64,000 nt of DNA. It comes from Elusimicrobiota bacterium (GTDB lineage: Bacteria > Elusimicrobiota > Elusimicrobia > UBA1565). A program made the position numbers and the translations under genes. How positions within the stretch are numbered: position 1 is the stretch's first letter; each line of letters starts with the position of its first letter. Of this stretch, positions 51,343 through 64,000 are shown in pieces. Location of the stretch: positions 42,608 to 106,607 of the forward strand of contig JACRDU010000094.1 in NCBI GenBank assembly GCA_016218495.1, written 5' to 3'. Under the pieces are notes generated by a model, which worked only from the letters and a program-made list of their open reading frames with translations, searched no databases and was not told where the DNA came from.

Positions 51343-51726
51343 CTAGCGCTCGATGAGGTAGTGGATCTCTTCCCAGAGGGCGTCCAGGTTGATCGGCTTG
51401 GACAGGTAGGCGTCGGCGCCGGTCAGGAGCCCCTCGGCCCGGTCGGCGGGCTCCGTGTACTTCGCCGAGAGCATCACGACGGGGATGCCCTTGAGCCGAG
51501 GGTCCCGCTTCATCCGGCGGCACAGCTCGATGCCGTTGCCGTCGGGGAGCTGCACGTCGAGCAGGACCAAGGCGGGCAGCCTCTCCGCCATCACCCGTAA
51601 GGCGTCGCCGGCCGACACGGCCCCCTCGACGGCCACGTCCTTCAGGGACATGGCGTCGGCCAAGGTCTCCCGGAAATGGCTGTCGTCGTCGACGAGCAGG
51701 ACCGCCGTCTTCGTCGCGGCGGTCAT
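51343..51726 (-). CDS. Stand-alone receiver (CheY-like REC) domain protein.
   Basis: Start re-derived at MTAATKTAVLLVDDD…; phospho-acceptor context ALVLLDVQLPDGNG; …PVVMLSAKYT…; ~127 aa. The ATG overlaps the stop of the M50-S8 gene (ATGA). The long 5' extension of ORF 51343..52086 is rejected. Confidence 0.75.
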   Translation of the reverse strand: MTAATKTAVLLVDDDSHFRETLADAMSLKDVAVEGAVSAGDALRVMAERLPALVLLDVQLPDGNGIELCRRMKRDPRLKGIPVVMLSAKYTEPADRAEGLLTGADAYLSKPINLDALWEEIHYLIER

Positions 51727-54700
51727 TTGGCCCCGCCCATAATCCACAAGGACAGCCGGGACACCCAGCCCGGGGCGGCGGGGGCGAAGCCCTCGGCCAG
51801 GAGCTTGTCGTAGGCGGCCTTCACCGAGTTGAAGCCGGAGCCGATGGAGGCCTCGCTCTGGTTGAGCTCGTTGGTCAGGGTCGCCATCACGGCGTTGACG
51901 ATGGCGTCGAGCTTCGCGCCCTTCTCGGTCACGCCGAACATCATCGCCAGCAGCGCCAGCGTGCCGGCGAACTTGGGCGTGGACATCGAGGTGCCGGAGA
52001 TGGCCCGGGTCTTTCCGCCCGGCCAGGCGCCCTCGGTGTCGTTGCCCTGCTCGGCGGCCTCGGGCTTGCGCGGGTAGTCCTTCCACTCCCCGCCGCGGCG
52101 GGTCACGGCGGAGCCGGGGCCCTTCGAGGAGAAGCTCGTGACCGTCTTGTTCTTGTCGGTGGCCGCGATGGAGAGCACGCGGTAGGCTCCCGTCTTCGCA
52201 TCCTTATAATAGGCGATGGCCGGGGAGCCGATGCTGTTCGCCCCCGCGTAGCCGTTGTTGCCGGCGGCGAAGACCATGATGTGGCCCTCTTCCGCCAGCT
52301 TCTTGACCAGCTGGGAGTCCGGGCTGGCCGGGTCCCCGCCGTCGTCGCCCCAGGAGTTCGACATGATGATGTTGCCGTCGTTGGCCGCCATCGTCAGCCC
52401 CTTGAGCACGTCGTCGGTGGTCGCCCCGCCGTCGGTGAAGGCCTTGTAGTGGGTGATGCTCTTGAGCCAGGGGGCATAGTTGAGGACCATCGAGGTCACC
52501 CAGGTCCCATGTCCGTTGTCGTCGATGCCGTCGCCGTTGGGCCGGACGTCCTTGTGCCCGGCCAGGCCGGGCTTGACCAGGGGGTGCTCGATGTCCACGC
52601 CCGTGTCGATGACGGCCACCTTGGGCTGGGCCGGGGCGTCGCCGAAGAGCCGCAGCAGGCTGCGGGCCAGCCAGGACCGGAAGCCCACCCCGGGGGCCCC
52701 CCAGCGCGCGCGGGCGATCTCATGGACCTTGTCCGCGGCGGAGAGCTTCAGGGTGTCCTTCATCGAGATGGAACCCCATTGGGTCTCGCTGGCCGGCCGC
52801 ACCGCGCCGGGCGTGTCTTCGATGGGGCGCACGATGGAGCGCGCCTCGTTCTGGTAGACCTTGAAGCCGCGCGCGGCCATATCGGCCTCGAACCGCTCCG
52901 CGGCCGCGAGCGGGACGCGGATGGAGGCCGTGTTGATGCGCTTGTAGGCCGCGACCGGGGCCGCGCCGTAGATGGAGAGGGCCTGGGCTCCGAGGCCGGC
53001 CGCCTCGAGCTCGGCCGACAGCGCCCCCTGCTGGCTGGCGAAGAGGGTGACGCCGCCGGGCCGGGTGACGTCGATGAGCCCGAGGTGGATGTCGGAGCCC
53101 AAGGGCCGCTGGGTTCCCTGGAGCTGCACGAGCACCAGCTTGGATTCAGGCATGGGGGCCGCGGCGGGAGCGGAGGGCGACCCGGGGGCCGCCGCCAGGC
53201 TCATGAAGAGGGCCAGCGGCAGGAAGAGGGCGCTCGTCACGCCCGTGATGAGTCCCATCAGGGCCCCGCCGCCGTACATCAGGGTGAGCACCAGGCCGTA
53301 GAGCTGGAGCCCCGCATGCCGGTCGAGCCAGGCCGCAGCGCCCGGCGCCTTGAGCCAATCGGCGACGACATGGCGCACGATGTGGTGGCCGTCGAGCGGG
53401 AAGAACGGCAGCAGGTTGAAGATGCCGAGCATCACGTTGAAGAGGACGAAGGCGTGCGCGGCGGCCGCCGCAAGGCCGCCGATGCCCGCAGCCGCCAGGC
53501 CGATCCCGGCGGCCGCGCCGAGCAGGGCCAGGGCGAAGTTGACGGCGGGGCCGGCGAAGGCGATCTTCGCCATGTCGGCGCCCGGCTTGCGCAGGTTCTG
53601 CTCCTTGACCTGGACGGGGACGGCCCCGCCGAAGAGGAGGCCGGTGAAGGCCAGGGTCAGCAGCGGCACCGCTATGGTCATCAGCGGGCTGATGTGGGTC
53701 AAGAGGTCGCGCGGGGTCCAGCCCAGACGGCCCTGCAGGCGGGCCGTGGGGTCGCCCAGCTTATCGGCCGCCTTGGCGTGGCCCATCTCATGGAGGATCA
53801 GCGAAGGGACGACGAAGGCCGCGTACAGCGGGGCCATCACGAAGAAAGCGGGGGAGATGGCGTGGGTCAGGACGCCGACGCCCAGGCCCGCGCCGAGCAG
53901 GAGCGCCGAGCCGGCCCAGGTGCTGACGAAGCGGCCGGCCGCGCCGAAGCGGGAGACCCAGGACGGGGACATCATGCTGAAGAGCTCGGAGCTCCCGCCG
54001 CGCTCCCCGCCGAAGTCGGGGTCGGAGCGGTCGTCGGGCCCGCCTTCGCCGCCGCGCCGGGGCGTGTTGCCCAGGTCGTCGAGGCCGTCGGTGGAATCGG
54101 GGCTGTCGGCGGGGTTCCCCTTCGTCTCATCGGGCATGCCCTTGGACTTGGCCAGACCCGAGCGCGAGGAAGACGCGCCCTTGGCGGCGTTGAAGGTCCC
54201 GCCGACCTGGCCGGCGCGCGCCGCGGAGCCGTCGAAGAGGCGGCCCAGCGCGGAGGGGCCGGTCCAGCCCTTGCGCACGGAAGAGAACAGGCCGTCGTTG
54301 CCGCCCCGGTCCCCGCCGTAGTCGGGGTCGGAGCGGTCGTCGGGCCCGCCTTCGCCGCCGCGCCGGGGCGTGTTGCCCAGGTCGTCGAGGCCGTCGGCGG
54401 AGTCCGGGCTGTCGGCGGGAGTCCCCGTCGTCTCATCCGGCATCGCCTTGTCCTTCTTGAATTCGGAACGGTAGGCGGAGGCGCCGGGCACGGAGAGCGG
54501 CAGGGCGGCGGCGGCTTGCGCGGCGGCGGTCGTCTCGGCGCGCGGGATGGAGACGACGGGCAGCCCGAGGCTCGGGGAGACCAAGGCGCCGGGCGTCGCC
54601 AGGCCGAGGGCGCCCGGCTTGACCATCGTGACGGCGCCCGCCGCCCCGATGGAGCCGACGGGGCTCACGCCCGTCGCAGTGGGAGCGGCCATCCTGCCGA

Positions 54701-54788
54701 GCTGGGCCCAGGCGTTGGAGCCGGGGGCGAGCGCGATGAGGGAGAGGGAAATGGAGAGGGCGACGGCGGAGCGCAGTGTCTTGGTCAT
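51723..54788 (-). CDS. Multidomain protease: signal peptide, acidic tandem repeats, M50 (site-2-protease-like) intramembrane metalloprotease domain and a C-terminal S8 subtilisin-like serine protease.
   Basis: Start re-derived at MTKTLRSAVALSISLSLIALAPGSNAWAQ (AAGGAGG ~18 nt upstream). M50 motifs LILHEMGHAKAA (HExxH in TM) and FNLLPFFPLDGHH (NxxPxxxLDG). S8 triad VAVIDTGVD (Asp), DNGHGTWVTS (His), SGTSMSTPKFAG (Ser). The upstream part of ORF 51723..56135 is Arg/Gly-rich shadow and is rejected. Confidence 0.65.
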   Translation of the reverse strand: MTKTLRSAVALSISLSLIALAPGSNAWAQLGRMAAPTATGVSPVGSIGAAGAVTMVKPGALGLATPGALVSPSLGLPVVSIPRAETTAAAQAAAALPLSVPGASAYRSEFKKDKAMPDETTGTPADSPDSADGLDDLGNTPRRGGEGGPDDRSDPDYGGDRGGNDGLFSSVRKGWTGPSALGRLFDGSAARAGQVGGTFNAAKGASSSRSGLAKSKGMPDETKGNPADSPDSTDGLDDLGNTPRRGGEGGPDDRSDPDFGGERGGSSELFSMMSPSWVSRFGAAGRFVSTWAGSALLLGAGLGVGVLTHAISPAFFVMAPLYAAFVVPSLILHEMGHAKAADKLGDPTARLQGRLGWTPRDLLTHISPLMTIAVPLLTLAFTGLLFGGAVPVQVKEQNLRKPGADMAKIAFAGPAVNFALALLGAAAGIGLAAAGIGGLAAAAAHAFVLFNVMLGIFNLLPFFPLDGHHIVRHVVADWLKAPGAAAWLDRHAGLQLYGLVLTLMYGGGALMGLITGVTSALFLPLALFMSLAAAPGSPSAPAAAPMPESKLVLVQLQGTQRPLGSDIHLGLIDVTRPGGVTLFASQQGALSAELEAAGLGAQALSIYGAAPVAAYKRINTASIRVPLAAAERFEADMAARGFKVYQNEARSIVRPIEDTPGAVRPASETQWGSISMKDTLKLSAADKVHEIARARWGAPGVGFRSWLARSLLRLFGDAPAQPKVAVIDTGVDIEHPLVKPGLAGHKDVRPNGDGIDDNGHGTWVTSMVLNYAPWLKSITHYKAFTDGGATTDDVLKGLTMAANDGNIIMSNSWGDDGGDPASPDSQLVKKLAEEGHIMVFAAGNNGYAGANSIGSPAIAYYKDAKTGAYRVLSIAATDKNKTVTSFSSKGPGSAVTRRGGEWKDYPRKPEAAEQGNDTEGAWPGGKTRAISGTSMSTPKFAGTLALLAMMFGVTEKGAKLDAIVNAVMATLTNELNQSEASIGSGFNSVKAAYDKLLAEGFAPAAPGWVSRLSLWIMGGAK
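54000..54450. repeat. Two ~150-bp near-identical direct repeats (spaced ~300 bp) encoding acidic Pro/Asp/Gly-rich modules in the M50-S8 protein.
   Basis: 54005-54150 vs 54308-54450 are almost identical. The protein modules are K(A/G)MPDET(T/K)G(T/N)PADSPDS(A/T)DGLDDLGNTPRRGGEGGPDDRSDPD(Y/F)GG(D/E)RGG. Confidence 0.75.
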
Positions 54789-54929
54789 GGCCCCATTGTA
54801 GCGGCCGCCTCCTTCCTTAGTATGAGACCGAGGGCCCAGCGGGGGGGCGTTATAGGGCCCAACAGGACGTGGGACGGCGGGACCGCCCCCCGGGGCCGTT
54901 GGACCCCCCGCGAATGCTAAGCTTGCTAC

Positions 54930-56618
54930 GTGTCGGCAGCCCTCCTCGCGCTGATGCTCTTCGCCCCTGCCCCCGCCGGGGCGGCCGGGCAGGGCGACCC
55001 GGTCCTGGACGCTCTGAGCGCCGAGCTGTCGCGCTCCTTCTCGGGCCTGCGCCGCAAGCACCCGGCCCCGCCGCTGTACTACCTCTCCTATCAGGCCCTG
55101 GAGACCCGCTCCCTCGGCCATACCGCCGTCCTCGGCTCGATGCTCGCCGAGTCCGAATCCGCTTCGCGCACCCTCGACGTCGATGTCCGCGTCGGCAGCC
55201 CGCTGCTCGACAACACACACGAGATCAAGGGCGCCGAGAGCGCCGGCCACGAGGACGCCTCGACCTCCGGCCCCCTGCCGCTGGGCGACGACCCGCTCGC
55301 GCTCAGGATGGCGGCCTGGGCCTTGACCGACATGGCCTTCAAGGACGCCCAGGCCCGCTACACGAAGACCACGGCCGACCGGGCGGTCAGCGCGGACGAG
55401 AGCGACACTTCGGGGGATTTCACGCTTCAAGAGGGCCTGCGGCACTCCGAGCCGCCCCCCCCCGCCCCGCGAGACCCCGGCCCCTGGCGCGAGCGCCTGC
55501 GCCGGGTCTCGGCGCGGGCGGCGCGCCACCCCGCCCTCGTCTCGTCGCAGGTCTCCCTGTCCCAGGATTCCGTGCGGTCCTGGTTCGTGGACTCGCAGGG
55601 CGCGGCGCTGGCGACCTCGGAGACCTCGGTCCGCCTCGACCTGTCGCTGACGGCCCGCACCACCGACGGGATGGCCCTCGACCGGAGCGCGTCCTGGACG
55701 GCCCGTACCCCGGACGGGCTCCCGTCGGAGGAGGAGGCCGCGCTGACCCTCGACCGTCTGGCCGGAGAGCTCCGCGCGCTGTCGACCGCGCCCGACGCCG
55801 TCCCCTACCACGGCCCGGCCGTGTTCGGGTCGACCGCCGCGGCCGTGCTCTTCCACGAAATCCTCGGCCACCGCCTCGAAGGGCAGCGCCAGAAGCTCGA
55901 GTCCGAGGGACAGACCTTCGCGACGAAGCTGGGCCAACCCGTCACGGCCCCGTTCATCTCCGTCTTCGACGACCCGACTCTGGACTCCCTGGCCGGTTTC
56001 CCGCTGGCGGGCCATTACCGCTTCGACGACGAAGGCCGCCCGGCCGAGCGGGTCGACCTGGTCAAGGACGGCCGCCTGACGGGCTTTCTGATGTCGAGCA
56101 TGCCCATCGCCGCGTTCCCGCGCTCGAACGGGCATGGACGCCGCTCCCCCGGCCGCAGGGCCGTGGCGCGCATGGCCAACCTCGTGGTCTCCGCTTCGAC
56201 GACGGTGCCGTCGGCGGACCTGCGGGACCTCCTGCGCGCCGAGCTCCTACGCCAGAAGAAGCCCTGGGGGCTCTGGTTCTCCGACGTCGAGAGCGGCTAC
56301 ACCACGACGACGCGCGACGCCACCCAAGCCTTCGAGGTCGACCCCAAGCTGGTCTACCGGGTCTGGGCCGACGGAAGGCCCGACGAACCCGTGCGCGGAG
56401 TCAACATCGTCGGGACCCCGCTGACCTCGTTCACCAAGATCATCGCCGCTGCCGACGACATGGGGGTCTTCAACGGCGTCTGCGGCGCGGAGTCCGGCTG
56501 GGTCTCCGTCTCGGCCGCCTCCCCCAGCCTCCTGTTCAGCGAAATCGAGGTGGAGAAGGGGGTCAAGGACGCCGAGCGCCCGCCGCTCCTGGCCCCCCCC
56601 GCCCAGGACAAGCGATGA
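54930..56618 (+). CDS. Secreted TldD-like metallopeptidase (TldD/PmbA family, HExxxH-containing subunit).
   Basis: GTG start; signal peptide MSAALLALMLFAPAPAGAAG. TldD motifs FHEILGHRLEG (HExxxH), RSNGHGRR, GVFNGVCGAESGWVSVSAASPSLLF. Confidence 0.75.
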   Translation: MSAALLALMLFAPAPAGAAGQGDPVLDALSAELSRSFSGLRRKHPAPPLYYLSYQALETRSLGHTAVLGSMLAESESASRTLDVDVRVGSPLLDNTHEIKGAESAGHEDASTSGPLPLGDDPLALRMAAWALTDMAFKDAQARYTKTTADRAVSADESDTSGDFTLQEGLRHSEPPPPAPRDPGPWRERLRRVSARAARHPALVSSQVSLSQDSVRSWFVDSQGAALATSETSVRLDLSLTARTTDGMALDRSASWTARTPDGLPSEEEAALTLDRLAGELRALSTAPDAVPYHGPAVFGSTAAAVLFHEILGHRLEGQRQKLESEGQTFATKLGQPVTAPFISVFDDPTLDSLAGFPLAGHYRFDDEGRPAERVDLVKDGRLTGFLMSSMPIAAFPRSNGHGRRSPGRRAVARMANLVVSASTTVPSADLRDLLRAELLRQKKPWGLWFSDVESGYTTTTRDATQAFEVDPKLVYRVWADGRPDEPVRGVNIVGTPLTSFTKIIAAADDMGVFNGVCGAESGWVSVSAASPSLLFSEIEVEKGVKDAERPPLLAPPAQDKR

Positions 56619-58315
56619 GGACGGCCGCCCTCCTGGCCCTCTTGACGGCCTCCGGGCACGCGCGTCCCCCCGCCAAGGCCGCCTCGGACGCCGTCCTCAC
56701 GGCCGCGCTCCGTGAGATGGAACGCTCCCTCGCCGGGCTCTCCCTGGACAACGTGCGCCCATTCCGGCTGTCGTACACCCTGCTGAGCGCCCGCAAGGTC
56801 TCCGCGGAAGCCTCCTTCGGCTCGCTGGAGAGCTCGGCCGTGGAGACCGACCGGCTCGCATCGGCCGACCTGCGCGTCGGGTCGCCCGATTTCGACAACA
56901 CGGATTTCATCGGGGCAGACGGGGGCGGCCACGCCCCCTTCACCATCCAGGTCCCCCAGGAGGACGGCGCCCTCGGTCTCCGCTACGGCCTGTGGTGGAT
57001 GACCGACTCGGCCTTCAAGTCGGCCCACCGGCGCTGGTCCCAGAAGGACGCGTTCCGCCGCGCCAAGAACCTGCCCGAGCTCCTTGCGGATTCCGTCCCC
57101 GCCCCGGTCGCCGTCTACGACGCGGTGGAGCAGGACACCGCCCTTCCCGTGGCGCGGGCCGAAGAGGCCTCACGGGCCGCTTCGGCGGCCCTGCGCGGGA
57201 ACCCGTCCCTCCATTGGGGCCGGGCCGCGGTCCGCTCGGAGGAGGGCCTCCTGCGCTTCCTCGACTCGGAGGGGCGGCGCGTCCGCAGGACCGATGCGCG
57301 CTACGAGGCCCTGATCGCCGCCGAGACCCAGGCCCCCGACGGCATGCCGCTGCGCCAGGAGCGCCGCTTCCTGACCCGGCGCGCCTCCGCGCTGCCCTCC
57401 GACGCCGCCCTCGCCGCCGAAGCCCGGGAGCTGGCCGCGGACCTGGCGGACCTGGCGGCGGCCCCCGGCTTCGAGACGCCCTACATCGGCCCGGTCCTCT
57501 TCGAGGGTCAGGCGGCGGGAGAGTTCTTCCACCAGCTCCTGGCCCGGGGGCTCCAGGCCCCCCGCGAGATGCTCCGCGAGAGCGAGTCGCTGCGCGACGC
57601 GTTCGGCCCCGGCGAGCTCACGGGCCGCCTGGGCCTGCGCGTCGCCGGGAGAATCCTGTCGGCCTATGACGACCCTCTGCGCGAGGAAGAAGGCGGGGTC
57701 CTCCTGTCCGGCTACGCCCCGGTCGACGACGAGGGGGTCCCGGCCCGGCGCATCGCCCTGCTGGAACGCGGAATCCTCAAGGGACTCCCTCTCGGGCGCG
57801 CCCCCGCCCGCAGCCTGAGCGGCTCCAACGGCCACGCCCGCGCGTCGCTCTCCCACCTTCCTTCCCCGCGCGCCGCCTGCCTGTTCGTGGACGCCGAAGG
57901 GAGCCTGGACGCGCAGGCCCTGCGCGCGGAGCTGCTGCGCCGCGCCGGGGACTTCGGCCTCTCCTACGCCGTCGTGGTACGGCGCCTCGCGGGGACATCC
58001 GAGATGCGGGACGGGGACCTGCTGCCGCCTCCGGCCTATGCCCTGAAGGTCTATCCCGACGGCCGCGAGGAGCCGCTGCGGGGCGCGGTGTTCGACGGCG
58101 TGACGATGCGGGCCCTGCGCGATGTGGCGGCCGCCGGCGCCCGGCGCCGCGTCTACAACTACATGCAGCCCGGGCCTTACGGGTCCGCCGACGACGCCGT
58201 CCCGGCCAGCATCGTCCATCCCGACATCCTCGTCACCGAGATGGAGCTGGTGCCCGACGAGCGCGAACCTGACCGGGACCCGGTGCTCCCGAGCCCACTG
58301 GAGGACGCACGATGA
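56615..58315 (+). CDS. Secreted TldE/PmbA-like partner protein (TldD/PmbA family; HExxxH degenerate).
   Basis: The ATG overlaps the upstream stop (ATGA). Signal peptide MRTAALLALLTASGHA. Family motifs FHQLLARG (no Glu after His), GSNGHARAS and the C-terminal TldD/PmbA fold. The N-terminal 580 aa of ORF 54869..58315 are rejected. Confidence 0.7.
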   Translation: MRTAALLALLTASGHARPPAKAASDAVLTAALREMERSLAGLSLDNVRPFRLSYTLLSARKVSAEASFGSLESSAVETDRLASADLRVGSPDFDNTDFIGADGGGHAPFTIQVPQEDGALGLRYGLWWMTDSAFKSAHRRWSQKDAFRRAKNLPELLADSVPAPVAVYDAVEQDTALPVARAEEASRAASAALRGNPSLHWGRAAVRSEEGLLRFLDSEGRRVRRTDARYEALIAAETQAPDGMPLRQERRFLTRRASALPSDAALAAEARELAADLADLAAAPGFETPYIGPVLFEGQAAGEFFHQLLARGLQAPREMLRESESLRDAFGPGELTGRLGLRVAGRILSAYDDPLREEEGGVLLSGYAPVDDEGVPARRIALLERGILKGLPLGRAPARSLSGSNGHARASLSHLPSPRAACLFVDAEGSLDAQALRAELLRRAGDFGLSYAVVVRRLAGTSEMRDGDLLPPPAYALKVYPDGREEPLRGAVFDGVTMRALRDVAAAGARRRVYNYMQPGPYGSADDAVPASIVHPDILVTEMELVPDEREPDRDPVLPSPLEDAR

Positions 58316-58677
58316 GCGGAGCGATTCAGTTGAACGGGGTGGAATGCCGGTGCAAGGTCGGGGTCCCGGACTGGGAGCGCCGCAAGCGCCAGCGCATCCT
58401 GCTGGACCTCATCGTCACCGCGGACCTGCGCGCCGCGGCCCGCTCGGACGACCCGAAGGACTCCCCGGACTATCACGGCCTCGAGAAGGCCGTGCGCGCC
58501 GCCGTCGAAGGCGGCGAATTCCGCCTCCTCGAGCGCCTGTCGGAAGCGGTCGCCGACGCCGCCCTCTCCTTCGACCGCCGCATCCAGGCCGTCGCCGTCT
58601 CCGCCCGCAAGCGGCCCGCCGTCATGAAGCGCACCCAGGAAGTCGTCGTCCGCCTCTCCAAAGCGCGCCGGCCCTAG
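58312..58677 (+). CDS. folB: Dihydroneopterin aldolase.
   Basis: 121 aa; …GVPDWERRKRQRILLDLIV…DYHGL… matches the FolB family. The ATG overlaps the upstream stop (ATGA). Confidence 0.7.
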   Translation: MSGAIQLNGVECRCKVGVPDWERRKRQRILLDLIVTADLRAAARSDDPKDSPDYHGLEKAVRAAVEGGEFRLLERLSEAVADAALSFDRRIQAVAVSARKRPAVMKRTQEVVVRLSKARRP

Positions 58678-58787
58678 GCTCCGGGTCGTTGGAATAATAA
58701 CAGGCACGATGGACTAGGTCTTAAGGCCTAAAGACGGGCTTCCCGTACGGCCCGGGCCTTGACGGCCCTCCGGACCCATAATCAGGC

Positions 58788-59891
58788 ATGAACCGGAGGT
58801 GGGCCGTCCTCGCGGCCGTTTTCGCGTTGTGCGCGCCGGCGCGGGCACAAGAACAGCTTTCCCGGGATTTTTCGGCGCTTTCATCCGAGGTGAAGCAGGA
58901 AGGCGAAGACCTGGCCGAGAAGGTCTCCAAGCGCAGCTCGCCCCGCCCCGTCGTCCGCATCCTGAGCTGGAACATCCAGACCTTCGGCGCCTCGGTCAGC
59001 CCGCAGCGCGAGGCCGCCTACGGCGAGATCCTCGGCCAGATGCTGTCCACCACCCGCTCGGCCCGGATCATGGCGTTCCAGGAGATCGCCAACGCCACCG
59101 GGGCCGCGAAGGTCTCCGGCCTGCTCCCCGGCGGCACGGACCGCTGGCAGGGCTCCTTCACCAACACCAACGACGGCATGGACAACGGCTTCTTCGCGGC
59201 CAACGACGTGGGCATGGACTGCGAGCGCCCGCTCTTCGCGCAGCAGGGCGAGAACGGCCGCTGGCGCAGCGACAAGGAGCAGATGGCGCATCCGCCGCGC
59301 GCCGCCCACATCCGGGTCGGCGACCTGGACTTCACCCTAATCACCATCCACCTGACCTTCAAGGGCGGGGACACCCGCGAGAGCGGCCGCGAGCTGTGGA
59401 ACCTGATGAACTGGCTGGCCCAGTACCTCTCCAAGGACGGCGCCGACCCGGACGTCGTCATCGCGGGGGATTTCAACATCCCCACCAAGAAGGGCTCCTC
59501 CGGCGGGCTCACCATCGAGGACTTCGTGGGCAAGCACCCCACCTTCGGGTCCCCGCAGGCCACGGCCGGCGGGCGCCTGGCGCCCTGGGCGCTGGTCGCC
59601 CTCGTCGACGAGGCCACGTCGCGCAACCGCGAGGGCAAGCCGGTCAACAACTACGACCACTTCGTGATGACCGGAGACCTCTACAACGAGGAGTACGCCC
59701 TCAACTCGGCCGGGGTCGTCCCCCACGACTACATGCACTCGATGGAGCAGCGCCACGGGGTGCTCGTCTCCGACCATTATCCGATCTCCGCGGGCTTCTA
59801 CACCTCCGGAGCCGGCAACGACGGCCGCCCCATCGCCGCGGACGGGGACACGGCCTGCCGGGTCCTGCTGTCGATGGCGCCGTTGCAGTAG
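58788..59891 (+). CDS. Secreted endonuclease/exonuclease/phosphatase (EEP) family protein.
   Basis: Signal peptide MNRRWAVLAAVFALCAPARA. EEP motifs …VRILSWNIQTFG…, …IMAFQEI…, …VIAGDFNIP…, …SDHYPI…. Confidence 0.7.
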   Translation: MNRRWAVLAAVFALCAPARAQEQLSRDFSALSSEVKQEGEDLAEKVSKRSSPRPVVRILSWNIQTFGASVSPQREAAYGEILGQMLSTTRSARIMAFQEIANATGAAKVSGLLPGGTDRWQGSFTNTNDGMDNGFFAANDVGMDCERPLFAQQGENGRWRSDKEQMAHPPRAAHIRVGDLDFTLITIHLTFKGGDTRESGRELWNLMNWLAQYLSKDGADPDVVIAGDFNIPTKKGSSGGLTIEDFVGKHPTFGSPQATAGGRLAPWALVALVDEATSRNREGKPVNNYDHFVMTGDLYNEEYALNSAGVVPHDYMHSMEQRHGVLVSDHYPISAGFYTSGAGNDGRPIAADGDTACRVLLSMAPLQ

Positions 59892-59917
59892 GCTCTCAAC
59901 CCTAATACAATCCCCTG

Positions 59918-62158
59918 ATGCGGCCGGTGGGCGAAAGCGCTCCGCGCAAGGACGGTCCCGACAAGCTCTGCGGGGCCGCGCGCTACATAGACGACCACCC
60001 CATCCCCGGGGCCCTCTTCGGAGTCACCGTGCGCTCCCGCTCGGCTTCGGGCCGCATCAAGGGGGTCCGCTTCGACCCCTCCTTCCCCTGGGCGGAGTGC
60101 GTGGTGGCCGACGCCCGCGACATCCCGGGCAAGAACGCCGTCCACCTGCTCGGGGACGACCAGCCGCTCCTCGCCGACGGCGTCGTGCGGCACGCCTTCG
60201 AACCCGTCCTCCTCGTCGGCCACCCGGACCGGGCGACGGCCTGGCGGGCCCTCGAGAACGTAACGCTCGAGATAGAGCCGATCGAGCCGGTGCTGACGAT
60301 GGAGGACTCCGTCTCCCGCAAGCGCGTGATCTGGGGCGACGACAACGTCTTCAAGACCATCACCATCAAGAAGGGCGACGCAGCCGCCGCGCTCGCCCAA
60401 GCCCCCGTCGTCGTCGAAGGCGTGTACCGCGTCCCCCATCAGGAGCAGGCCTACATCGAGAACCAGGGGATGTCGGCCTGGTTCGAGGAAGACGGCACCC
60501 TCGTCGTGATGGGCTCGCTGCAGTGCCCCTACTACGTCCACAAAGCCCTGCAGCCCATCTTCGCCCTGCCCGCGGAGAAGGTCCGCGTCATCCATGCGGT
60601 GACCGGCGGCGGCTTCGGCGGCAAGGAGGAATACCCCAACATGCTGGGGGGGCACGCCGCCCTCCTGGCCCTGAAGGCCAAGCGCCCGGTGAAGATGATC
60701 TATGACCGGACCGAAGACATGCAGGCCACCACCAAACGCCATCCGGCGGTGGTCCGCCACCGCACCGGGCTGACCAAGGACGGCCGCCTGCTGGCCCAGG
60801 AGATAGACATCCTGATGGACGGCGGGGCCTACATGACCCTCTCCCCCGTCGTCCTCTCGCGCGGCATCCTGCACGCCACCGGCCCCTACGAATGCCCGAA
60901 CGTCTCGGTCCTGGCGCGCTCCGTCGCCACCAATACGCCGCCCAACGGGGCCTTCCGGGGCTTCGGCGCCCCGCAGACCCTCTTCGCGGCCGAGATGCAC
61001 TGGGAGAAGATCGCCTCGGTCCTGGGCAAGGACCCCGTCGACCTGCGCCGGCGCAACGCCGTCAAGGTCGGCTCCGTCCTCGCCACGGGGCAGGTCCTCA
61101 AGGAGAGCGTCAGCGCCGGGAAGGTCCTCGAGACGGCGGTCAAGCGCTCGAATTGGACTGCCGCGCGGCGCGCGCACGCCCGCTGGAACAAGGACCCCGG
61201 GAAGCCGACCTGGCGCGGGCTGGGCCTCTCGCTGGTCCACCACGGGGCGGGATTCACGGGCAACGGCGAGGTCTACCTGAAGAGCCGGGCGGGGCTCGCC
61301 ATCGACCGCGCCGGCCGCGTCACCGTCCTGGCCGGCTCCACCGAGATGGGGCAGGGCGCCTCGAGCACCCTGGCGCAGATCGCCGCCGACGCGCTGGGCG
61401 TCCCCTACGGCTCCGTCTCCGTCGAAAGGCCCGACACGGCGCGCGTTCCGGACAGCGGGCCGACGGTGGCCAGCCGCACGACGATGGTGGTGGGCGGGCT
61501 GGTCCGCCGCGCAGCCTCCGACCTCCGCACGGCCCTGGCCAAGGCCGCCGGCCGCGCCCCGAGCGGCGCGCCGGCCTTCCGGCGCGCCGCCCGCAAGCTC
61601 TGCGGCGCCGCCTCGGAGCGCCGTTTCCTGGCCGAGTACGAGCGGCCGGCCGGCCTGACCTTCGACGACGTGAACTACGTCGGCGACGCCTACGGCTCCT
61701 ACGGCTTCGCGGCCTGCGCCGTGGAGCTCGAGGTCGACCGGACGACCTTCGAGGTCCGCCTGCTGCGCGTGTTCACCGCCCAGGACGTCGGCAAGGCCGT
61801 GAACCCCCGCGTGGTCGAGGGCCAGATCGCGGGGGGGACCGTGCAGGGGCTGGGCTGGGCCCTGCTCGAGCAGTGCGTGTACAAGGACGGCGCCCTGCAG
61901 AACCCCCGCCTGACAGACTACGTCATCCCGACGGCGCTCGACGTGCCCGACATCGAGGTGGCCATCGTCGAGGACCCGTACTCCTGCGGGCCCTTCGGGG
62001 CGAAGGGCGTCGGCGAGATGCCGATGGACCCGCCCGGGCCGGCCGTGGCCGCGGCGGTATTCAACGCCACCGGGCTCTTCCTGCCGACCCTGCCCATCCT
62101 GCCGGAGAGGATTCAGGAAGCCGCCGACGAGGAAGCGGCCCGGAGGGCCCTGAAATGA
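59918..62158 (+). CDS. Xanthine dehydrogenase / aldehyde oxidase family molybdopterin-binding large subunit.
   Basis: 746 aa. N-terminal Ald_Xan_dh_C hammerhead (…KLCGAARYIDDHPIPGALFG…) and MoCo-binding domains (…GGGFGGKE…, …AFRGFGAPQ…, …GKAVNPRVVEGQI…GLGWAL…). Confidence 0.85.
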   Translation: MRPVGESAPRKDGPDKLCGAARYIDDHPIPGALFGVTVRSRSASGRIKGVRFDPSFPWAECVVADARDIPGKNAVHLLGDDQPLLADGVVRHAFEPVLLVGHPDRATAWRALENVTLEIEPIEPVLTMEDSVSRKRVIWGDDNVFKTITIKKGDAAAALAQAPVVVEGVYRVPHQEQAYIENQGMSAWFEEDGTLVVMGSLQCPYYVHKALQPIFALPAEKVRVIHAVTGGGFGGKEEYPNMLGGHAALLALKAKRPVKMIYDRTEDMQATTKRHPAVVRHRTGLTKDGRLLAQEIDILMDGGAYMTLSPVVLSRGILHATGPYECPNVSVLARSVATNTPPNGAFRGFGAPQTLFAAEMHWEKIASVLGKDPVDLRRRNAVKVGSVLATGQVLKESVSAGKVLETAVKRSNWTAARRAHARWNKDPGKPTWRGLGLSLVHHGAGFTGNGEVYLKSRAGLAIDRAGRVTVLAGSTEMGQGASSTLAQIAADALGVPYGSVSVERPDTARVPDSGPTVASRTTMVVGGLVRRAASDLRTALAKAAGRAPSGAPAFRRAARKLCGAASERRFLAEYERPAGLTFDDVNYVGDAYGSYGFAACAVELEVDRTTFEVRLLRVFTAQDVGKAVNPRVVEGQIAGGTVQGLGWALLEQCVYKDGALQNPRLTDYVIPTALDVPDIEVAIVEDPYSCGPFGAKGVGEMPMDPPGPAVAAAVFNATGLFLPTLPILPERIQEAADEEAARRALK

Positions 62159-62613
62159 TCCGCCTGAGCGTCAACGGCCGCCGCCGCGCCTACGCCGGCC
62201 CCCCCTTCGCTCGCCTGATCGACGCGCTGCGCGAGGATTGGGGCCTGACCGGGACGAAGGAAGGCTGCGGCGAAGGCGAGTGCGGGGCCTGCACCGTGCT
62301 CATCGACGGGGAGCCGGCCAACGCCTGCCTGGTCCCGATGGGCCAGCTCGACGGCGCCCGCGTGGAGACCGTGGAGGCCCTCGGGACCCCCGAGCGCCTG
62401 AACCGCCTGCAGCGGGCCTTCGCCGAGAAGGGCGGCGCCCAATGCGGCATCTGCACGCCGGGGATGCTCATGGCGGCGGAAGCCCACCGGCGCGCCAAAG
62501 GGCGCAAGGACCGCGAGGGCATCTGCCGCGCCCTGTCCGGGAACCTCTGCCGCTGCACCGGCTACAAGCACATCATCGAGTCGGTCTCCGCCGCGCTCAA
62601 GGGGAAGAAGTGA
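62155..62613 (+). CDS. (2Fe-2S)-binding small subunit of the molybdo-hydroxylase.
   Basis: The ATG overlaps the large-subunit stop (ATGA). Cys cluster I CGEGECGACTV and cluster II CGICTPG…CRCTGY. Confidence 0.85.
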   Translation: MIRLSVNGRRRAYAGPPFARLIDALREDWGLTGTKEGCGEGECGACTVLIDGEPANACLVPMGQLDGARVETVEALGTPERLNRLQRAFAEKGGAQCGICTPGMLMAAEAHRRAKGRKDREGICRALSGNLCRCTGYKHIIESVSAALKGKK

Positions 62614-62630
62614 GGGGCGACGCCGGCTCG

Positions 62631-63479
62631 ATGACCTACCTCCGGCCCCGGGACCCCGAAGAGGCGCTCCGGCTGGCCGGCGAGTGCCCCGACGCGCTGG
62701 CGCTGGCCGGCGGCACCGACATCATGGTCGCCTGGAACGCGGGGCGCCTGAACGGGAGGTCCATCCTCGACCTCTCCGGGCTGGACGACTGGCGCCGCGT
62801 CAGCACGACGCGCGACGGCATCGACATCGGCGCGCTGGTCACCCACGCCCAGCTCATCCGCCATCGGGAACTCGCCGCCGGGTGGCCCCTGCTCGCGGCC
62901 GCCTGCGCCACCGTGGGCGGGCCCCAGATCCAGGCCCGCGGCACCCTGGGCGGGAACATAGCCAACGCCTCGCCGGCAGGGGACACCTTCCCGGCCCTCG
63001 CCGTCTACGAGGCCCGCGTCCGGGTCCGGTCCAGCCGCGGCGGCCGGGAGCTCCCCTTCGCCGAGGTCTTCGCCGGGGTCAAGCGCACGCACCTGGCCCC
63101 CGGCGAGCTGATAGTCTCGGTCCATCTCCCCCGCCCGCCGGAGCCCGACCGCCAGCTCTTCCGCAAGGTCGGCACCCGCGCGGCCCAGGCCATCTCCAAG
63201 GCCGTTGCGGCGGGGCTCCTGTGGACCGACTCCGGCGGCTCGGTCCGCGAGCTGCGCTTCGCCCTCGGCTCGATGGCGCCCACGGTCCGGCGCCTGCGCC
63301 GTGCCGAGGAGTTCCTGCGCGGACGGCGCCTGGACAAGGGGGTCGTCTCCGAGGCGGCCCGCCTGCTCGAGGAAGACGTCTCCCCCATCAGCGACGTCCG
63401 CTCGACGGCCGCCTACCGCCTGCGCGCCTCTCAGAACATCCTGAGAGGGTTCCTGGAGGGCCGTCTTGAAACACCTTAG
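62631..63479 (+). CDS. FAD-binding medium subunit of the molybdo-hydroxylase (CoxM/XdhB-like).
   Basis: MTYLRPRDPEEALRL…LAGGTDIMV…GTLGGNIANASPAGD (FAD-binding PCMH fold). An alternative GTG start at 62610 overlapping the small-subunit stop is possible. Confidence 0.8.
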   Translation: MTYLRPRDPEEALRLAGECPDALALAGGTDIMVAWNAGRLNGRSILDLSGLDDWRRVSTTRDGIDIGALVTHAQLIRHRELAAGWPLLAAACATVGGPQIQARGTLGGNIANASPAGDTFPALAVYEARVRVRSSRGGRELPFAEVFAGVKRTHLAPGELIVSVHLPRPPEPDRQLFRKVGTRAAQAISKAVAAGLLWTDSGGSVRELRFALGSMAPTVRRLRRAEEFLRGRRLDKGVVSEAARLLEEDVSPISDVRSTAAYRLRASQNILRGFLEGRLETP

Positions 63480-64000
63480 GACGGTCCTCGAACCCGAGTC
63501 CATCGCCCCCATCCTCGCCGCGCTGGCGGACGCCGAAGACGGCTTCCTGCTGCGTCACCCCGGGCACGGAGGGGAGCGCAGGCCCGTCCATGTCCTCTAC
63601 GGCGGGGCGCACCTGTTCTCCTCCGACACGCCCTCCAAACTCGGAACGCTCGCGCGCAAGGCCCTCGACTCCCGGCTGCCCGACGCCGCCGCGCTCGAGC
63701 GCGTGCTGGGGATCGACCCGCGCTTGGCTGGGCGCGTGCGTGAACGCGTCGTTGAAAAGCTCGTCCGGGAGCCGGTCGAGGACTTCCGCATCGACTTCGA
63801 GGACGGCTACGGCCCCCGTCCCGACGCGGAGGAGGACGCCCACGCCCTCGGCGCCGCGGTCGAGACCGCGGAAGGCATGCGGCGGGGGACCCTGCCGCCG
63901 TTCATCGGCATCCGGATCAAGCCTCTGACGACCGAGCTGTCCGCCCGGGCGGCCCGCACCCTCGACGTCTACCTCTCCACCCTGCTGGCCGAGGTCCGCG
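63466..64000 (+). CDS. Hypothetical protein, partial; the 3' end lies beyond the window. It possibly has an aldolase / citrate-lyase-like fold.
   Basis: TTG start preceded by GGAGGG. Translation LKHLRTVLEPESIAPILAALADAEDGFLLRHPGHGGERRPVHVLYGGAHLF…DFRIDFEDGYG…, an open frame to the window end. It is in the same operon position as molybdo-hydroxylase accessory genes. Confidence 0.35.
   Translation, partial: MKHLRTVLEPESIAPILAALADAEDGFLLRHPGHGGERRPVHVLYGGAHLFSSDTPSKLGTLARKALDSRLPDAAALERVLGIDPRLAGRVRERVVEKLVREPVEDFRIDFEDGYGPRPDAEEDAHALGAAVETAEGMRRGTLPPFIGIRIKPLTTELSARAARTLDVYLSTLLAEVR

What the first reader, a model, noticed from the sequence alone, without database searches (positions are those of the whole stretch)
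54930..58677. Signal-peptide-bearing TldD/TldE-like pair translationally coupled to folB
TldD/PmbA proteases are classically cytoplasmic heterodimers acting on microcin B17 precursor and CcdA. Here both paralogues carry clear N-terminal signal peptides. One has HExxxH and the other has it degenerate (FHQLLARG), consistent with an exported active/inactive heterodimer. Their genes overlap by ATGA, and the second overlaps folB by ATGA, an unexpected functional coupling.
Basis: partly seen in the sequence, partly recalled or inferred. Interest (0 to 1): 0.5.

Follow-up and report, generated by a model that had tools for sequence, protein, structure and literature searches.

The report
Exported TldD/TldE-like protease pair plus folB
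Two adjacent genes encode a secreted version of the normally cytoplasmic TldD/TldE peptide-cutting enzyme, with one active and one dead subunit; this uncharacterised family occurs in many little-studied bacterial phyla, and the folate gene behind it is most likely only a passenger in the operon.

Summary
Three tightly packed + strand genes are present: A (54930-56618, 562 aa), B (56615-58315, 566 aa) and folB (58312-58677), with ATGA overlaps at both junctions.

A and B both have the full TldD/PmbA fold. A keeps the HExxxH motif and the Cys metal ligand. B has lost both (HQLLAR).

Both proteins start with signal-peptide-like sequences. So do about 90% of their homologues, in a family of at least 593 species genomes from Elusimicrobiota (the source phylum), Acidobacteriota, Ignavibacteria, Planctomycetota and other phyla. 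Across 73 pairs, the first gene always keeps the ligands and the second always lacks them.

Fifty-two of the 149 best cluster representatives are single-chain A-B fusions. Each has one N-terminal signal, and a proline-rich linker replaces B's signal. This supports an exported A+B complex.

B resembles A and TldD more than PmbA, which suggests a separate duplication.

The folB link is weaker evidence of function. It is found only in some Elusimicrobiota lineages. In others, the orthologous folB overlaps the end of an unrelated GH1 glycosidase gene in the same way.

Verdict: an uncharacterised exported branch of the M103 peptidases, probably a periplasmic oligopeptidase. Functional coupling to folB is not supported. 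Interest is moderate.

The parts
54930..56618 (+). Gene A: exported TldD-like catalytic subunit, 562 aa, GTG start
   Evidence: ORF. PF19289 at 2e-29. AF2 model pLDDT 91.9; best PDB match is E. coli TldD 5njf_A, E 1.2e-32, TM 0.75 on the target, aligned over full length.
54930..54986 (+). Predicted Sec-type signal peptide of A (about 19 aa, VSAALLALMLFAPAPAGAA; cleavage site approximate)
   Evidence: Hydropathy and AXA heuristic. Low pLDDT for residues 1-20. Homologues have variable but signal-like N-termini before the conserved DPxLxALxxELxRS helix. SignalP was not run.
55854..55871 (+). HEILGH zinc-binding and catalytic motif of A (residues 309-314)
   Evidence: Aligned to E. coli TldD HEAVGH. 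H309, E310 and H314 are invariant in 107 sequences. The motif is kept in 73 of 73 first genes.
56481..56483 (+). Cys518 of A, equivalent of the TldD Cys454 third metal ligand
   Evidence: GVCG aligned to E. coli VCG. Invariant in the family. Kept in 73 of 73 first genes. Ligand role from PMC5810440.
56547..56615 (+). Conserved, low-confidence Pro-rich C-terminal tail of A (EVEKGVKDAERPPLLAPPAQDKR)
   Evidence: Invariant E540, E542, K543, K546, P551, P552, L554 and P557 among 15 sequences. pLDDT 48-65. In fused proteins this tail continues into the linker to the B half.
56615..56618 (+). ATGA overlap: B start codon overlapping A stop codon
   Evidence: A potential 4-bp (A/G)TGA overlap occurs in 48 of 76 homologous loci, and in 60 of 76 the genes lie within 4 nt of each other.
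56615..58315 (+). Gene B: exported catalytically dead TldD paralogue (TldE-like by role), 566 aa
   Evidence: PF19289 at 6.1e-21. 31% identical to A over full length, E 1e-49. AF2 pLDDT 93.7; PDB matches are TldD and PmbA, E about 1e-24.
56615..56683 (+). Predicted signal peptide of B (MRTAALLALLTASGHA, possibly up to ...AKAA; 16-23 aa)
   Evidence: Heuristic. pLDDT 48-54 for residues 1-20. B-family N-termini are signal-like in 79 of 93. In A-B fusions this segment is replaced by a non-hydrophobic linker.
57530..57547 (+). Degenerate motif HQLLAR in B (residues 306-311), at the position of HExxxH
   Evidence: Pairwise alignment. HExxxH and the Cys are absent in 73 of 73 second genes.
58300..58305 (+). 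GGAGGA Shine-Dalgarno-like sequence, 6 nt upstream of the folB ATG and inside the 3' end of B
   Evidence: Read directly from the sequence.
58312..58677 (+). folB: dihydroneopterin aldolase homologue, 121 aa, no signal peptide; its ATG overlaps the B stop (ATGA at 58312-58315)
   Evidence: PF02152 at 3.7e-25 and TIGR00526 at 64 bits, above the 45.05 cut-off. Full-length alignment to M. tuberculosis DHNA 1nbu/1z9w. E22, Y54, E74 and K100 are present.

Best explanation
A and B encode the two subunits of an exported TldD/TldE-type (MEROPS M103) metallopeptidase.

Proposed sequence of events:
1. Each pre-protein is taken across the inner membrane by a Sec-type signal peptide. This is inferred.
2. 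The mature proteins pair in the periplasm. Elusimicrobiota are taken to be diderm, and that is my own knowledge, not tested here. The pairing would form a closed chamber like the E. coli TldD/E heterodimer.
3. A supplies the single His-His-Cys metal site and the catalytic Glu. This is shown by sequence.
4. B is a catalytically dead scaffold. Loss of the ligands is shown.

By analogy with E. coli TldD/E, the complex would admit only unfolded peptide ends and cut them into short fragments without ATP. The most likely role is degradation of periplasmic or imported oligopeptides, for nutrition or for envelope clean-up. This last step is inference only.

The A-B ATGA overlap gives coupled, near-equimolar synthesis.

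folB, an apparently functional cytoplasmic dihydroneopterin aldolase gene, sits at the 3' end of the same transcription unit with its own ribosome-binding site. It is most likely a passenger there and not a functional partner.
For: Fold and domain:
- PF19289 in both proteins.
- AF2 models with pLDDT 91.9 and 93.7 match E. coli TldD/PmbA over full length. Only TldD/PmbA-family chains match at E <= 0.001.

Active/dead split:
- H309, E310, H314 and C518 are invariant in the A family.
- The ligands are kept in 73 of 73 first genes and lost in 73 of 73 second genes.
- This is the same pattern as TldD versus TldE in PMC5810440.

Export:
- N-terminal extensions of variable sequence but signal-like character precede the first conserved helix in 100 of 109 A-family and 79 of 93 B-family proteins.
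- These segments have low pLDDT in both models.

Complex:
- The pair is adjacent in nearly all of the 80 species loci, from many phyla.
- A potential 4-bp overlap occurs in 48 of 76 loci.
- 52 of the 149 best cluster representatives are single-chain A-B fusions. The nine whose N-termini and motifs were printed, and the 31 matched by the motif scan, have one HExxGH motif in the first half and in most cases a signal-like N-terminus. Where the linker could be delimited it is Pro-rich and non-hydrophobic and takes the place of B's signal.
- One fusion protein was seen on 169 contigs in Bacteroidales MAGs.

folB as passenger:
- It is absent downstream of the pair in all 80 GTDB species loci and in L088-L090.
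- L089 shares the upstream synteny but lacks folB.
- Orthologous folB genes (55-61% identity) overlap a GH1 gene by 4-8 bp in L091-L093.
- L091 comes from the same assembly as L008, which carries the pair on another contig.
Against: - No dedicated signal-peptide predictor was run.
- A's signal has no positively charged n-region and depends on a GTG start that has no visible Shine-Dalgarno sequence. A gene caller chose the downstream ATG for the identical protein.
- No multimer model, biochemistry or localisation data exist for any family member, as far as my literature searches show.
- No conserved neighbour such as a transporter or a substrate gene points to a specific substrate.
- folB adjacency is kept tight (-4, -4, +1, -4 and -1 nt) in five lineages whose A proteins are only about 50% identical. 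Some selective benefit of co-expression therefore cannot be excluded.
Confidence: 0.7

Rival explanations
1. The N-terminal hydrophobic segments are uncleaved signal anchors. The pair would then be tethered to the outer face of the inner membrane and not released as soluble periplasmic proteins. Some homologues could instead be lipoproteins.
For: - The hydrophobic cores are short but present.
- A lacks a charged n-region, and its cleavage site is only heuristic.
- A few homologues show lipobox-like LAAC or LGC sequences, for example L072 and L068.
Against: - Small-residue AXA-type sites follow the h-region in most family members.
- The h-regions are about 10 residues long, which is short for a transmembrane helix.
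- Fused forms drop B's segment entirely, so it is not needed in the mature protein.
Confidence: 0.12
2. The pair is cytoplasmic like canonical TldD/E. On this view the apparent signals come from mis-called starts or are ordinary hydrophobic N-terminal helices.
For: - An alternative ATG at 54954 would remove A's hydrophobic core, and P0001 was called that way.
- My heuristic gives false positives on some cytoplasmic proteins, for example the Rossmann-type N-terminus at 36914 and the protein at 41180.
Against: - B's start is fixed by the ATGA junction, and it carries a signal-like N-terminus with Arg2.
- About 90% of more than 200 homologues called by independent pipelines carry such N-termini.
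- The segment lies upstream of the first conserved helix, is not conserved in sequence, and is disordered in the models.
- Fusions have exactly one such segment, at the extreme N-terminus.
Confidence: 0.05
3. folB is a true functional partner. For example, the exported peptidase and pterin/folate synthesis could act in one pathway or be co-regulated for a shared purpose.
For: - Tight B-folB junctions are kept in five lineages with about 50% identical A proteins.
- The folB catalytic residues are intact.
- Molybdo-enzyme genes of the xanthine dehydrogenase type lie downstream in the window, L001 and L003.
Against: - The linkage is absent in every non-Elusimicrobiota member and in several Elusimicrobiota.
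- The same folB orthologue is equally tightly joined to a GH1 glycosidase gene elsewhere.
- FolB has no signal peptide, so the products would sit in different compartments.
- My searches returned no paper that links the two families.
Confidence: 0.05
4. A works alone, for example as a homodimer as reported for Sulfolobus TldD, and B has taken on a separate non-catalytic job such as binding or regulation.
For: - A TldD homodimer was reported active in S. solfataricus, as discussed in PMC5810440.
- B evolves much faster than A. Mean column identity is 30% for the B family against 56% for the A family.
Against: - The pair shows near-universal adjacency and translational coupling.
- Covalent A-B fusions recur.
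- The whole architecture is collinear, including the C-terminal tails.
- E. coli TldD needs TldE for activity.
Confidence: 0.08

Closest known systems
E. coli TldD/TldE (PmbA) heterodimeric metalloprotease, MEROPS M103, PDB 5NJ5 (Ghilarov et al. 2017, PMC5810440)
   Same: - Same overall fold for both subunits.
- One subunit carries HExxxH and the Cys ligand, and the other lacks all ligands.
- The two genes and their products are paired.
   Different: - Both proteins here have N-terminal export signals. No signal, periplasmic or secreted form is mentioned in PMC5810440, and canonical TldD/E acts on cytoplasmic substrates (my own knowledge).
- They are about 80-120 residues longer than the E. 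coli subunits.
- Only the C-terminal Pfam domain is detectable by sequence.
- Scores are far below the NCBIfam TldD equivalog cut-offs.
- The genes are adjacent and overlapping.
- The dead subunit is closer to TldD than to PmbA.
- Both proteins end in conserved Pro-rich tails.
- Single-chain fusions exist.
Sulfolobus solfataricus TldD homodimer (Hu et al. 2012, as cited in PMC5810440)
   Same: A TldD-family metallopeptidase with an HExxxH motif.
   Different: It is reported to be active as a homodimer with no dead partner, and no export signal is reported. Here a dead paralogue is always co-encoded.
TldD/E-type proteases that remove RiPP leader peptides or process PQQ precursors (microcin B17, klebsazolicin, pearlins; Gluconobacter tldD/tldE; review PMC10885120; PMC8602642 listed)
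   Same: The same protease family. The sequence-independent 'pencil-sharpener' mechanism on unfolded peptide ends is the likely mode of action.
   Different: Those enzymes act inside the cell. No RiPP precursor or modification genes were seen next to the pair in the window or in related loci.
Dihydroneopterin aldolase FolB (M. tuberculosis Rv3607c, PDB 1NBU/1Z9W; E. coli FolB 2O90)
   Same: Full-length alignment, with the four catalytic-site residues E22, Y54, E74 and K100 present.
   Different: - It scores below the TIGR00525 equivalog cut-off (63.7 against 72.15 bits).
- No folK or folP gene appeared among the window ORFs I annotated or in the called genes of the related loci. Instead it sits at the 3' end of unrelated genes.

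Membership tests
TldD (catalytic subunit of M103 TldD/E) | PmbA/TldD C-terminal domain (PF19289) | tested here: met
   A scores 2e-29 and 102.8 bits, against a cut-off of 22.
TldD (catalytic subunit of M103 TldD/E) | HExxxH motif supplying two His ligands and the catalytic Glu (E. coli H262, E263, H267) | tested here: met
   HEILGH at residues 309-314, aligned to HEAVGH. Invariant in 107 sequences.
TldD (catalytic subunit of M103 TldD/E) | Third metal ligand, Cys454 equivalent | tested here: met
   Cys518 lies in NGVCGAESG, aligned to the E. coli VCG. Invariant in the family.
TldD (catalytic subunit of M103 TldD/E) | Full-length TldD fold, including the N-terminal and middle domains | tested here: met
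   The AF2 model matched against the PDB gives 5njf_A at E 1.2e-32, TM 0.75 on the target, about 548 aligned columns. At sequence level PF01523 and PF19290 were not detected.
TldD (catalytic subunit of M103 TldD/E) | Orthology with E. coli or archaeal TldD (NCBIfam equivalog cut-offs) | tested here: not met
   NF008006 scores 45.8 bits against a cut-off of 513. NF040952 scores 63.7 bits against 635.
TldD (catalytic subunit of M103 TldD/E) | Cytoplasmic location | tested here: not met
   Signal-like N-termini occur here and in about 90% of homologues. This rests on a heuristic only; SignalP was not run.
TldD (catalytic subunit of M103 TldD/E) | Proteolytic activity that requires a heterodimer with an inactive paralogue | not testable with these tools
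   Inferred from adjacency, translational coupling and A-B fusions.
TldE / PmbA (inactive subunit) | TldD/PmbA fold with all three metal ligands lost | tested here: met
   B has PF19289 at 6.1e-21 and fold matches to TldD and PmbA at E about 1e-24. It has HQLLAR and no Cys.
TldE / PmbA (inactive subunit) | Closer in sequence to PmbA/TldE than to TldD (orthology with PmbA) | tested here: not met
   With B alone, TldD scores 1.8e-5 and PmbA does not appear at E <= 1. With the B-family profile, TldD scores 63.8 bits and PmbA 42.5 bits. B against A gives E 1e-49.
Sec-type signal peptide | Positively charged n-region, hydrophobic h-region, and small residues at -3 and -1 | tested here: inconclusive
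   B meets all three by heuristic: Arg2, h-region TAALLALLTA, and SGHA or AKA sites. A has the h- and c-regions but no Lys or Arg. No trained predictor was available.
Dihydroneopterin aldolase (FolB) | FolB domain above curated cut-offs | tested here: met
   PF02152 scores 89 bits against a cut-off of 31.8. TIGR00526 scores 64 bits against 45.05. The TIGR00525 equivalog scores 63.7 bits against 72.15 and is not reached.
Dihydroneopterin aldolase (FolB) | Catalytic residues Glu22, Tyr54, Glu74 and Lys100 (S. aureus/M. tuberculosis numbering; their roles are from my own knowledge of the DHNA literature) | tested here: met
   All four residues are present at these positions. The alignment to 1nbu/1z9w is collinear. 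They are conserved in all eight Elusimicrobiota FolBs.
Dihydroneopterin aldolase (FolB) | Aldolase activity and a role in folate synthesis | not testable with these tools
   No folK or folP gene was seen among the annotated window ORFs or in the related loci. The rest of the genome was not available.

The most novel reading that the evidence does not exclude
This is a distinct exported branch of the M103 TldD/E peptidases. It would be a self-compartmentalised, ATP-independent peptide-shredding chamber working in the periplasm or outside the cell in Elusimicrobiota, Acidobacteriota, Bacteroidota and many candidate phyla. Its dead subunit would have arisen by a duplication of TldD separate from the one that gave PmbA/TldE, a convergent pseudo-enzyme partner. 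In some lineages the two subunits have fused into a single chain.
Probability: 0.55. Interest if true: 0.55.

Novelty: new variant of a known kind. Interest (0 to 1): 0.4.

Why it matters
TldD/E is described as a cytoplasmic heterodimer whose general cellular role is still unclear (PMC5810440, PMC10885120).

An exported clade is large: 981 clusters at 50% identity with E <= 1e-30, and at least 593 species genomes. If confirmed it would:
- place this unusual closed-chamber protease in the cell envelope;
- give a natural single-chain version for structural work;
- offer a second, possibly independent, example of an active/dead paralogue pair.

It also affects how peptide turnover is read in abundant but poorly studied soil and groundwater phyla.

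The folB result is a caution. A conserved ATGA overlap does not by itself indicate a shared function.

Tried and rejected
- **Exact look-up of A** found nothing because public gene calls use the downstream ATG. P0001 is the same protein minus 8 residues.
- **Rfam scan** of 54300-59200 at E <= 1 gave no RNA family, so no riboswitch.
- **Promoter and terminator consensus scans** of 54500-59200 found nothing. They are not informative for this 71-74% GC region.
- **Clustering of neighbour ORFs** over 83 loci found no partner conserved across phyla. The only other recurring clusters were ORFs on the opposite strand of real genes and lineage-specific synteny in up to 25 loci, among them L045, L067 and L086 (Acidoferrum-type Acidobacteriota). 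From the N-terminal sequences these look like aroC, def and fmt, but I did not run them against Pfam.
- **tblastn and a custom FolB HMM** found no folB in the 7-kb flanks of L007-L086.
- **Eight literature searches** for exported, periplasmic, Tat or secretome TldD/PmbA returned nothing relevant. The Vobruba 2022 review is not held.
- **The afdb50 fold library** was unavailable.
- **A lipoprotein reading for the window proteins was rejected.** Neither signal region contains a Cys; A's only Cys is C518 and B's is C422.
- **The first NJ tree misplaced the window.** My script picked the long out-of-frame-start ORF covering B. I ignored that leaf and used the 73% identity to L001 instead.

Full report
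**1. What is in the sequence**

The window is about 71% GC. Three + strand genes fill the flagged interval:
- A: GTG at 54930 to 56618, 562 aa.
- B: ATG at 56615 to 58315, 566 aa.
- folB: ATG at 58312 to 58677, 121 aa.

Both junctions read ATGA. A strong GGAGGA lies 6 nt upstream of the folB ATG, inside the end of B. The GTG at 54930 is the first possible start of A after an in-frame TAA at 54918.

A and B each hit only the C-terminal PmbA/TldD domain PF19289, at 2e-29 and 6.1e-21. The third gene hits FolB PF02152 at 3.7e-25. NCBIfam gives only weak TldD matches, far below the equivalog cut-offs. The best-named relatives are 'TldD/PmbA family protein' or 'metallopeptidase TldD-related protein' from Elusimicrobiota MAGs, so the window most likely comes from a high-GC member of that phylum.

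**2. Are they really TldD/E-like, with one active and one dead subunit?**

A aligns to E. coli TldD with HEILGH (309-314) on HEAVGH and GVCG (Cys518) on the E. coli VCG. According to the TldD/E structure paper, these positions correspond to the metal ligands H262, H267 and C454 and the catalytic Glu, none of which is kept in TldE (PMC5810440).

B has HQLLAR at the motif position and no Cys there. A and B are 31% identical and collinear from the first mature helix to the C-terminal tail (E 1e-49).

AlphaFold2 models built on family alignments are confident, with pLDDT 91.9 for A and 93.7 for B. Both match TldD and PmbA structures over essentially their whole length: A against 5njf_A gives E 1.2e-32 and TM 0.75 on the target, and B against 5njf_A gives E 4.7e-25. 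No other fold scores at E <= 0.001. The N-terminal two-thirds, invisible to Pfam, therefore also have the family fold.

Across 73 pairs (the window plus 72 related loci), the first gene always keeps HExxGH and NGxCGAE. The second gene never keeps either.

**3. Export signals**

No trained predictor was available, so this rests on four lines of evidence.

- *Hydropathy heuristic.* A crude heuristic combining hydropathy, uncharged run and an AXA site calls both N-termini signal-like. It also of 109 A-family and 79 of 93 B-family proteins signal-like. These proteins were called by independent pipelines. The heuristic rejects most cytoplasmic window proteins (FolB, PolA, Rho, thioredoxin, the XDH subunits), with about two false positives among roughly twenty.
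- *Raw N-termini.* Listed directly, they show the classic pattern of MK/MR, a hydrophobic stretch and AxA. Their sequences are not conserved, and they end just before the first conserved helix, DPxLxAMxxELxRS.
- *Model confidence.* These residues have low confidence in both models.
- *Fusions.* See section 4.

There are weak points. A has no Lys or Arg before its hydrophobic core, like its closest high-GC relatives. Its signal exists only with the GTG start, which has no obvious Shine-Dalgarno sequence. One pipeline chose the ATG at 54954 for the identical protein (P0001).

Because B's signal is fixed by the junction and the pair is always co-encoded, I consider the GTG start correct. Neither signal region contains Cys, so the window proteins are not lipoproteins.

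**4. Size of the family and evidence for a complex**

The 80 best come from Elusimicrobiota, Acidobacteriota, Ignavibacteria/Melioribacter, WOR-3, Planctomycetota, Eisenbacteria, Zixibacteria, Calditrichota, Polyangia and others, at 41-52% identity to A. In nearly all of them an A-like gene is followed directly by a B-like gene. A possible 4-bp (A/G)TGA overlap occurs in 48 of 76 loci, and the genes lie within 4 nt of each other in 60 of 76.

An exhaustive phmmer search of 1.84 billion cluster representatives gave 5223 hits at E <= 1e-3, 2697 at E <= 1e-10 and 981 at E <= 1e-30.

Of the 149 best representatives, 52 are proteins of 1000-1340 aa that match the query in two or more stretches. These are single-chain A-B fusions. 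In every fusion I inspected there is one HExxGH(R) motif, in the first half, and in most cases a signal-like N-terminus. Where the linker could be delimited it is short, Pro-rich and non-hydrophobic. It runs from A's conserved tail straight into B's first mature helix, so B's signal peptide is absent.

One such fusion, 1149 aa from Bacteroidales MAGs (NCBI HHT51849.1 and MDD3644068.1), occurs on 169 contigs, so it is not an assembly artefact.

This is classic Rosetta-stone evidence that A and B act together in one compartment. It also shows that B's N-terminal segment is a dispensable targeting sequence.

**5. Origin of the dead subunit**

B alone hits TldD (1.8e-5) but not PmbA at E <= 1. A profile of the B family scores TldD at 63.8 bits and PmbA at 42.5 bits. 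B is far closer to A, at E 1e-49.

This suggests that B descends from a duplication of a TldD-like gene within or near this clade, separate from the TldD/TldE split. A proper phylogeny was not done, so this remains an inference.

**6. folB**

The protein aligns end to end with M. tuberculosis dihydroneopterin aldolase. It keeps E22, Y54, E74 and K100, which I know from the DHNA literature as the catalytic set. It has no signal peptide.

folB follows the pair tightly (-4, -4, +1, -4 and -1 nt) in the window, L001, L003, L005 and L087, whose A proteins are only 51-73% identical. It is absent in the following places:
- downstream of the pair in L088, L089 and L090;
- in all 80 species loci, by both tblastn and a FolB HMM.

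L089 shares the polA-trx-response regulator-M50/S8 upstream synteny with L005 and the window but lacks folB. On an NJ tree the folB-positive loci are interspersed with folB-negative ones inside a single Elusimicrobiota subclade.

The closest FolB homologues are all from Elusimicrobia. In three further MAGs the orthologue (55-61% identity) overlaps the 3' end of a GH1 glycoside hydrolase gene by 4-8 bp, with PTPS, an SDR and QueC nearby. One of these MAGs is the assembly that carries the TldD-like pair on a different contig, L008.

folB therefore rides at the end of whatever gene precedes it. The arrangement in the window is a lineage-restricted operon layout and not evidence of shared function. 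A benefit from co-expression cannot be ruled out, but I rate true functional coupling at about 5%.

**7. Surroundings**

Upstream, on the minus strand and divergent from A, lies a 1026-aa signal-bearing protein. It combines an M50-like membrane segment (HEMGH) with a C-terminal S8 subtilase. Beyond it are a response regulator, thioredoxin, polA, a rhomboid protease and rho.

Downstream are a signal-bearing endonuclease/exonuclease/phosphatase-family protein, three genes of a xanthine-dehydrogenase-type enzyme, and a DUF6986 protein.

The M50/S8 gene recurs near the pair in L001, L003, L005, L087 and L089. No neighbour is conserved across phyla. No Rfam family, sigma-70-like promoter or intrinsic terminator was found in 54300-59200.

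**8. Mechanism and comparison with what is known**

Shown:
- fold and ligand pattern;
- pairing of the genes;
- existence of fusions;
- signal-like N-termini across the family.

Inferred:
- Sec export and signal cleavage;
- a heterodimeric closed chamber;
- sequence-independent trimming of unfolded peptide ends, as in the E. coli 'pencil sharpener' model (PMC5810440, PMC10885120);
- a role in turnover of periplasmic or imported oligopeptides.

The pair works like TldD/E. It is not an orthologue of E. coli TldD or PmbA, because the equivalog cut-offs are missed by a wide margin. It also differs in several ways:
- it is exported;
- it is longer;
- both proteins have conserved Pro-rich C-terminal tails;
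- the N-terminal domain has an invariant LDNTHQIKG motif;
- the dead subunit appears to have a different origin;
- single-chain forms exist.

I found no paper describing exported TldD/E in the held library. The library is incomplete, however, and databases already label these proteins generically. From memory, other TldD/PmbA-family proteins, for example in Bacteroidota, are annotated with Tat signals. I did not test this.

**9. Verdict**

The exported active/dead pair is supported and generalises to a large uncharacterised clade. The folB coupling is real as a gene layout but is most likely incidental.

Novelty: a new variant of a known kind. Interest: 0.4.

Noticed in passing
window 51723-54803 (-): A 1026-aa protein with a signal-like N-terminus, two acidic, Gly-rich tandem repeats of about 95 aa (…MPDETxGxPADSPDSxDGLDDLGNTPRRGGEGGPDDRSDPD…), an M50-like membrane segment (HEMGH; PF02163 at 3.9e-12) and a C-terminal S8 subtilase (PF00082 at 1.4e-30). 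It is transcribed divergently from gene A. The same M50/S8 fusion lies near the pair in L001, L003, L005, L087 and L089.
   Followed up: partly
window 56547-56615 and 58240-58312; alignments A1-A3: Both A and B end in conserved, low-pLDDT Pro-rich tails. In A the tail is EVEKxxKxxEKPPxLPPP, and in B it is …DPVLPSP…. I did not compare them with the C-terminal ends of E. coli TldD or PmbA. In fused proteins A's tail becomes the inter-domain linker.
   Followed up: partly
window 55206-55232 (A residues 93-101): An LDNTH(E/Q)IKG motif is invariant in the N-terminal domain of the A family (D94, T96, H97 and G101 in the 15-sequence alignment). B has FDNT(D/N)F at the same place. Its role is unknown; it could be a second functional site facing the chamber.
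   Followed up: no
P0260-P0403; P0409: 52 of the 149 best cluster representatives are single-chain A-B fusions of 1000-1340 aa. One, a 1149-aa protein from Bacteroidales MAGs, is found on 169 contigs.
   Followed up: yes
L091 6001-6396, L092 434-799, L093 688-1047: In other Elusimicrobia the folB orthologue overlaps the 3' end of a GH1 glycoside hydrolase gene by 4-8 bp. PTPS (PF01242), an SDR and QueC lie within a few kb, which looks like a small pterin/queuosine-related neighbourhood.
   Followed up: partly
window 12250-25332 (-): A giant 4360-aa ORF with a signal-like N-terminus and Kelch, FG-GAP, fibronectin-III and beta-helix repeats. It is probably a surface or adhesin-type protein.
   Followed up: partly
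window 58788-63999 (+): 110 bp after folB come a signal-bearing EEP-family protein, the three subunits of a xanthine-dehydrogenase-type molybdoenzyme (MoCo, 2Fe-2S, FAD) and a DUF6986 protein. The same order occurs in L001, and XDH-type genes also lie downstream in L003.
   Followed up: partly
Acidobacteriota loci among L019-L086, e.g. L045 3969-5141, L045 5053-5703, L067 5791-6753: In up to 25 loci, among them L045, L067 and L086 (Acidoferrum-type Acidobacteriota), three conserved ORFs lie just upstream of the exported pair. From their N-terminal sequences they look like aroC, def and fmt, but I did not run them against Pfam. This looks like lineage-specific synteny.
   Followed up: no
L001 6342-7957: In the closest related locus, a trypsin-like serine protease gene and a Zincin_1 (PF06262) gene sit immediately upstream of the pair. 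This makes a protease-rich neighbourhood.
   Followed up: no
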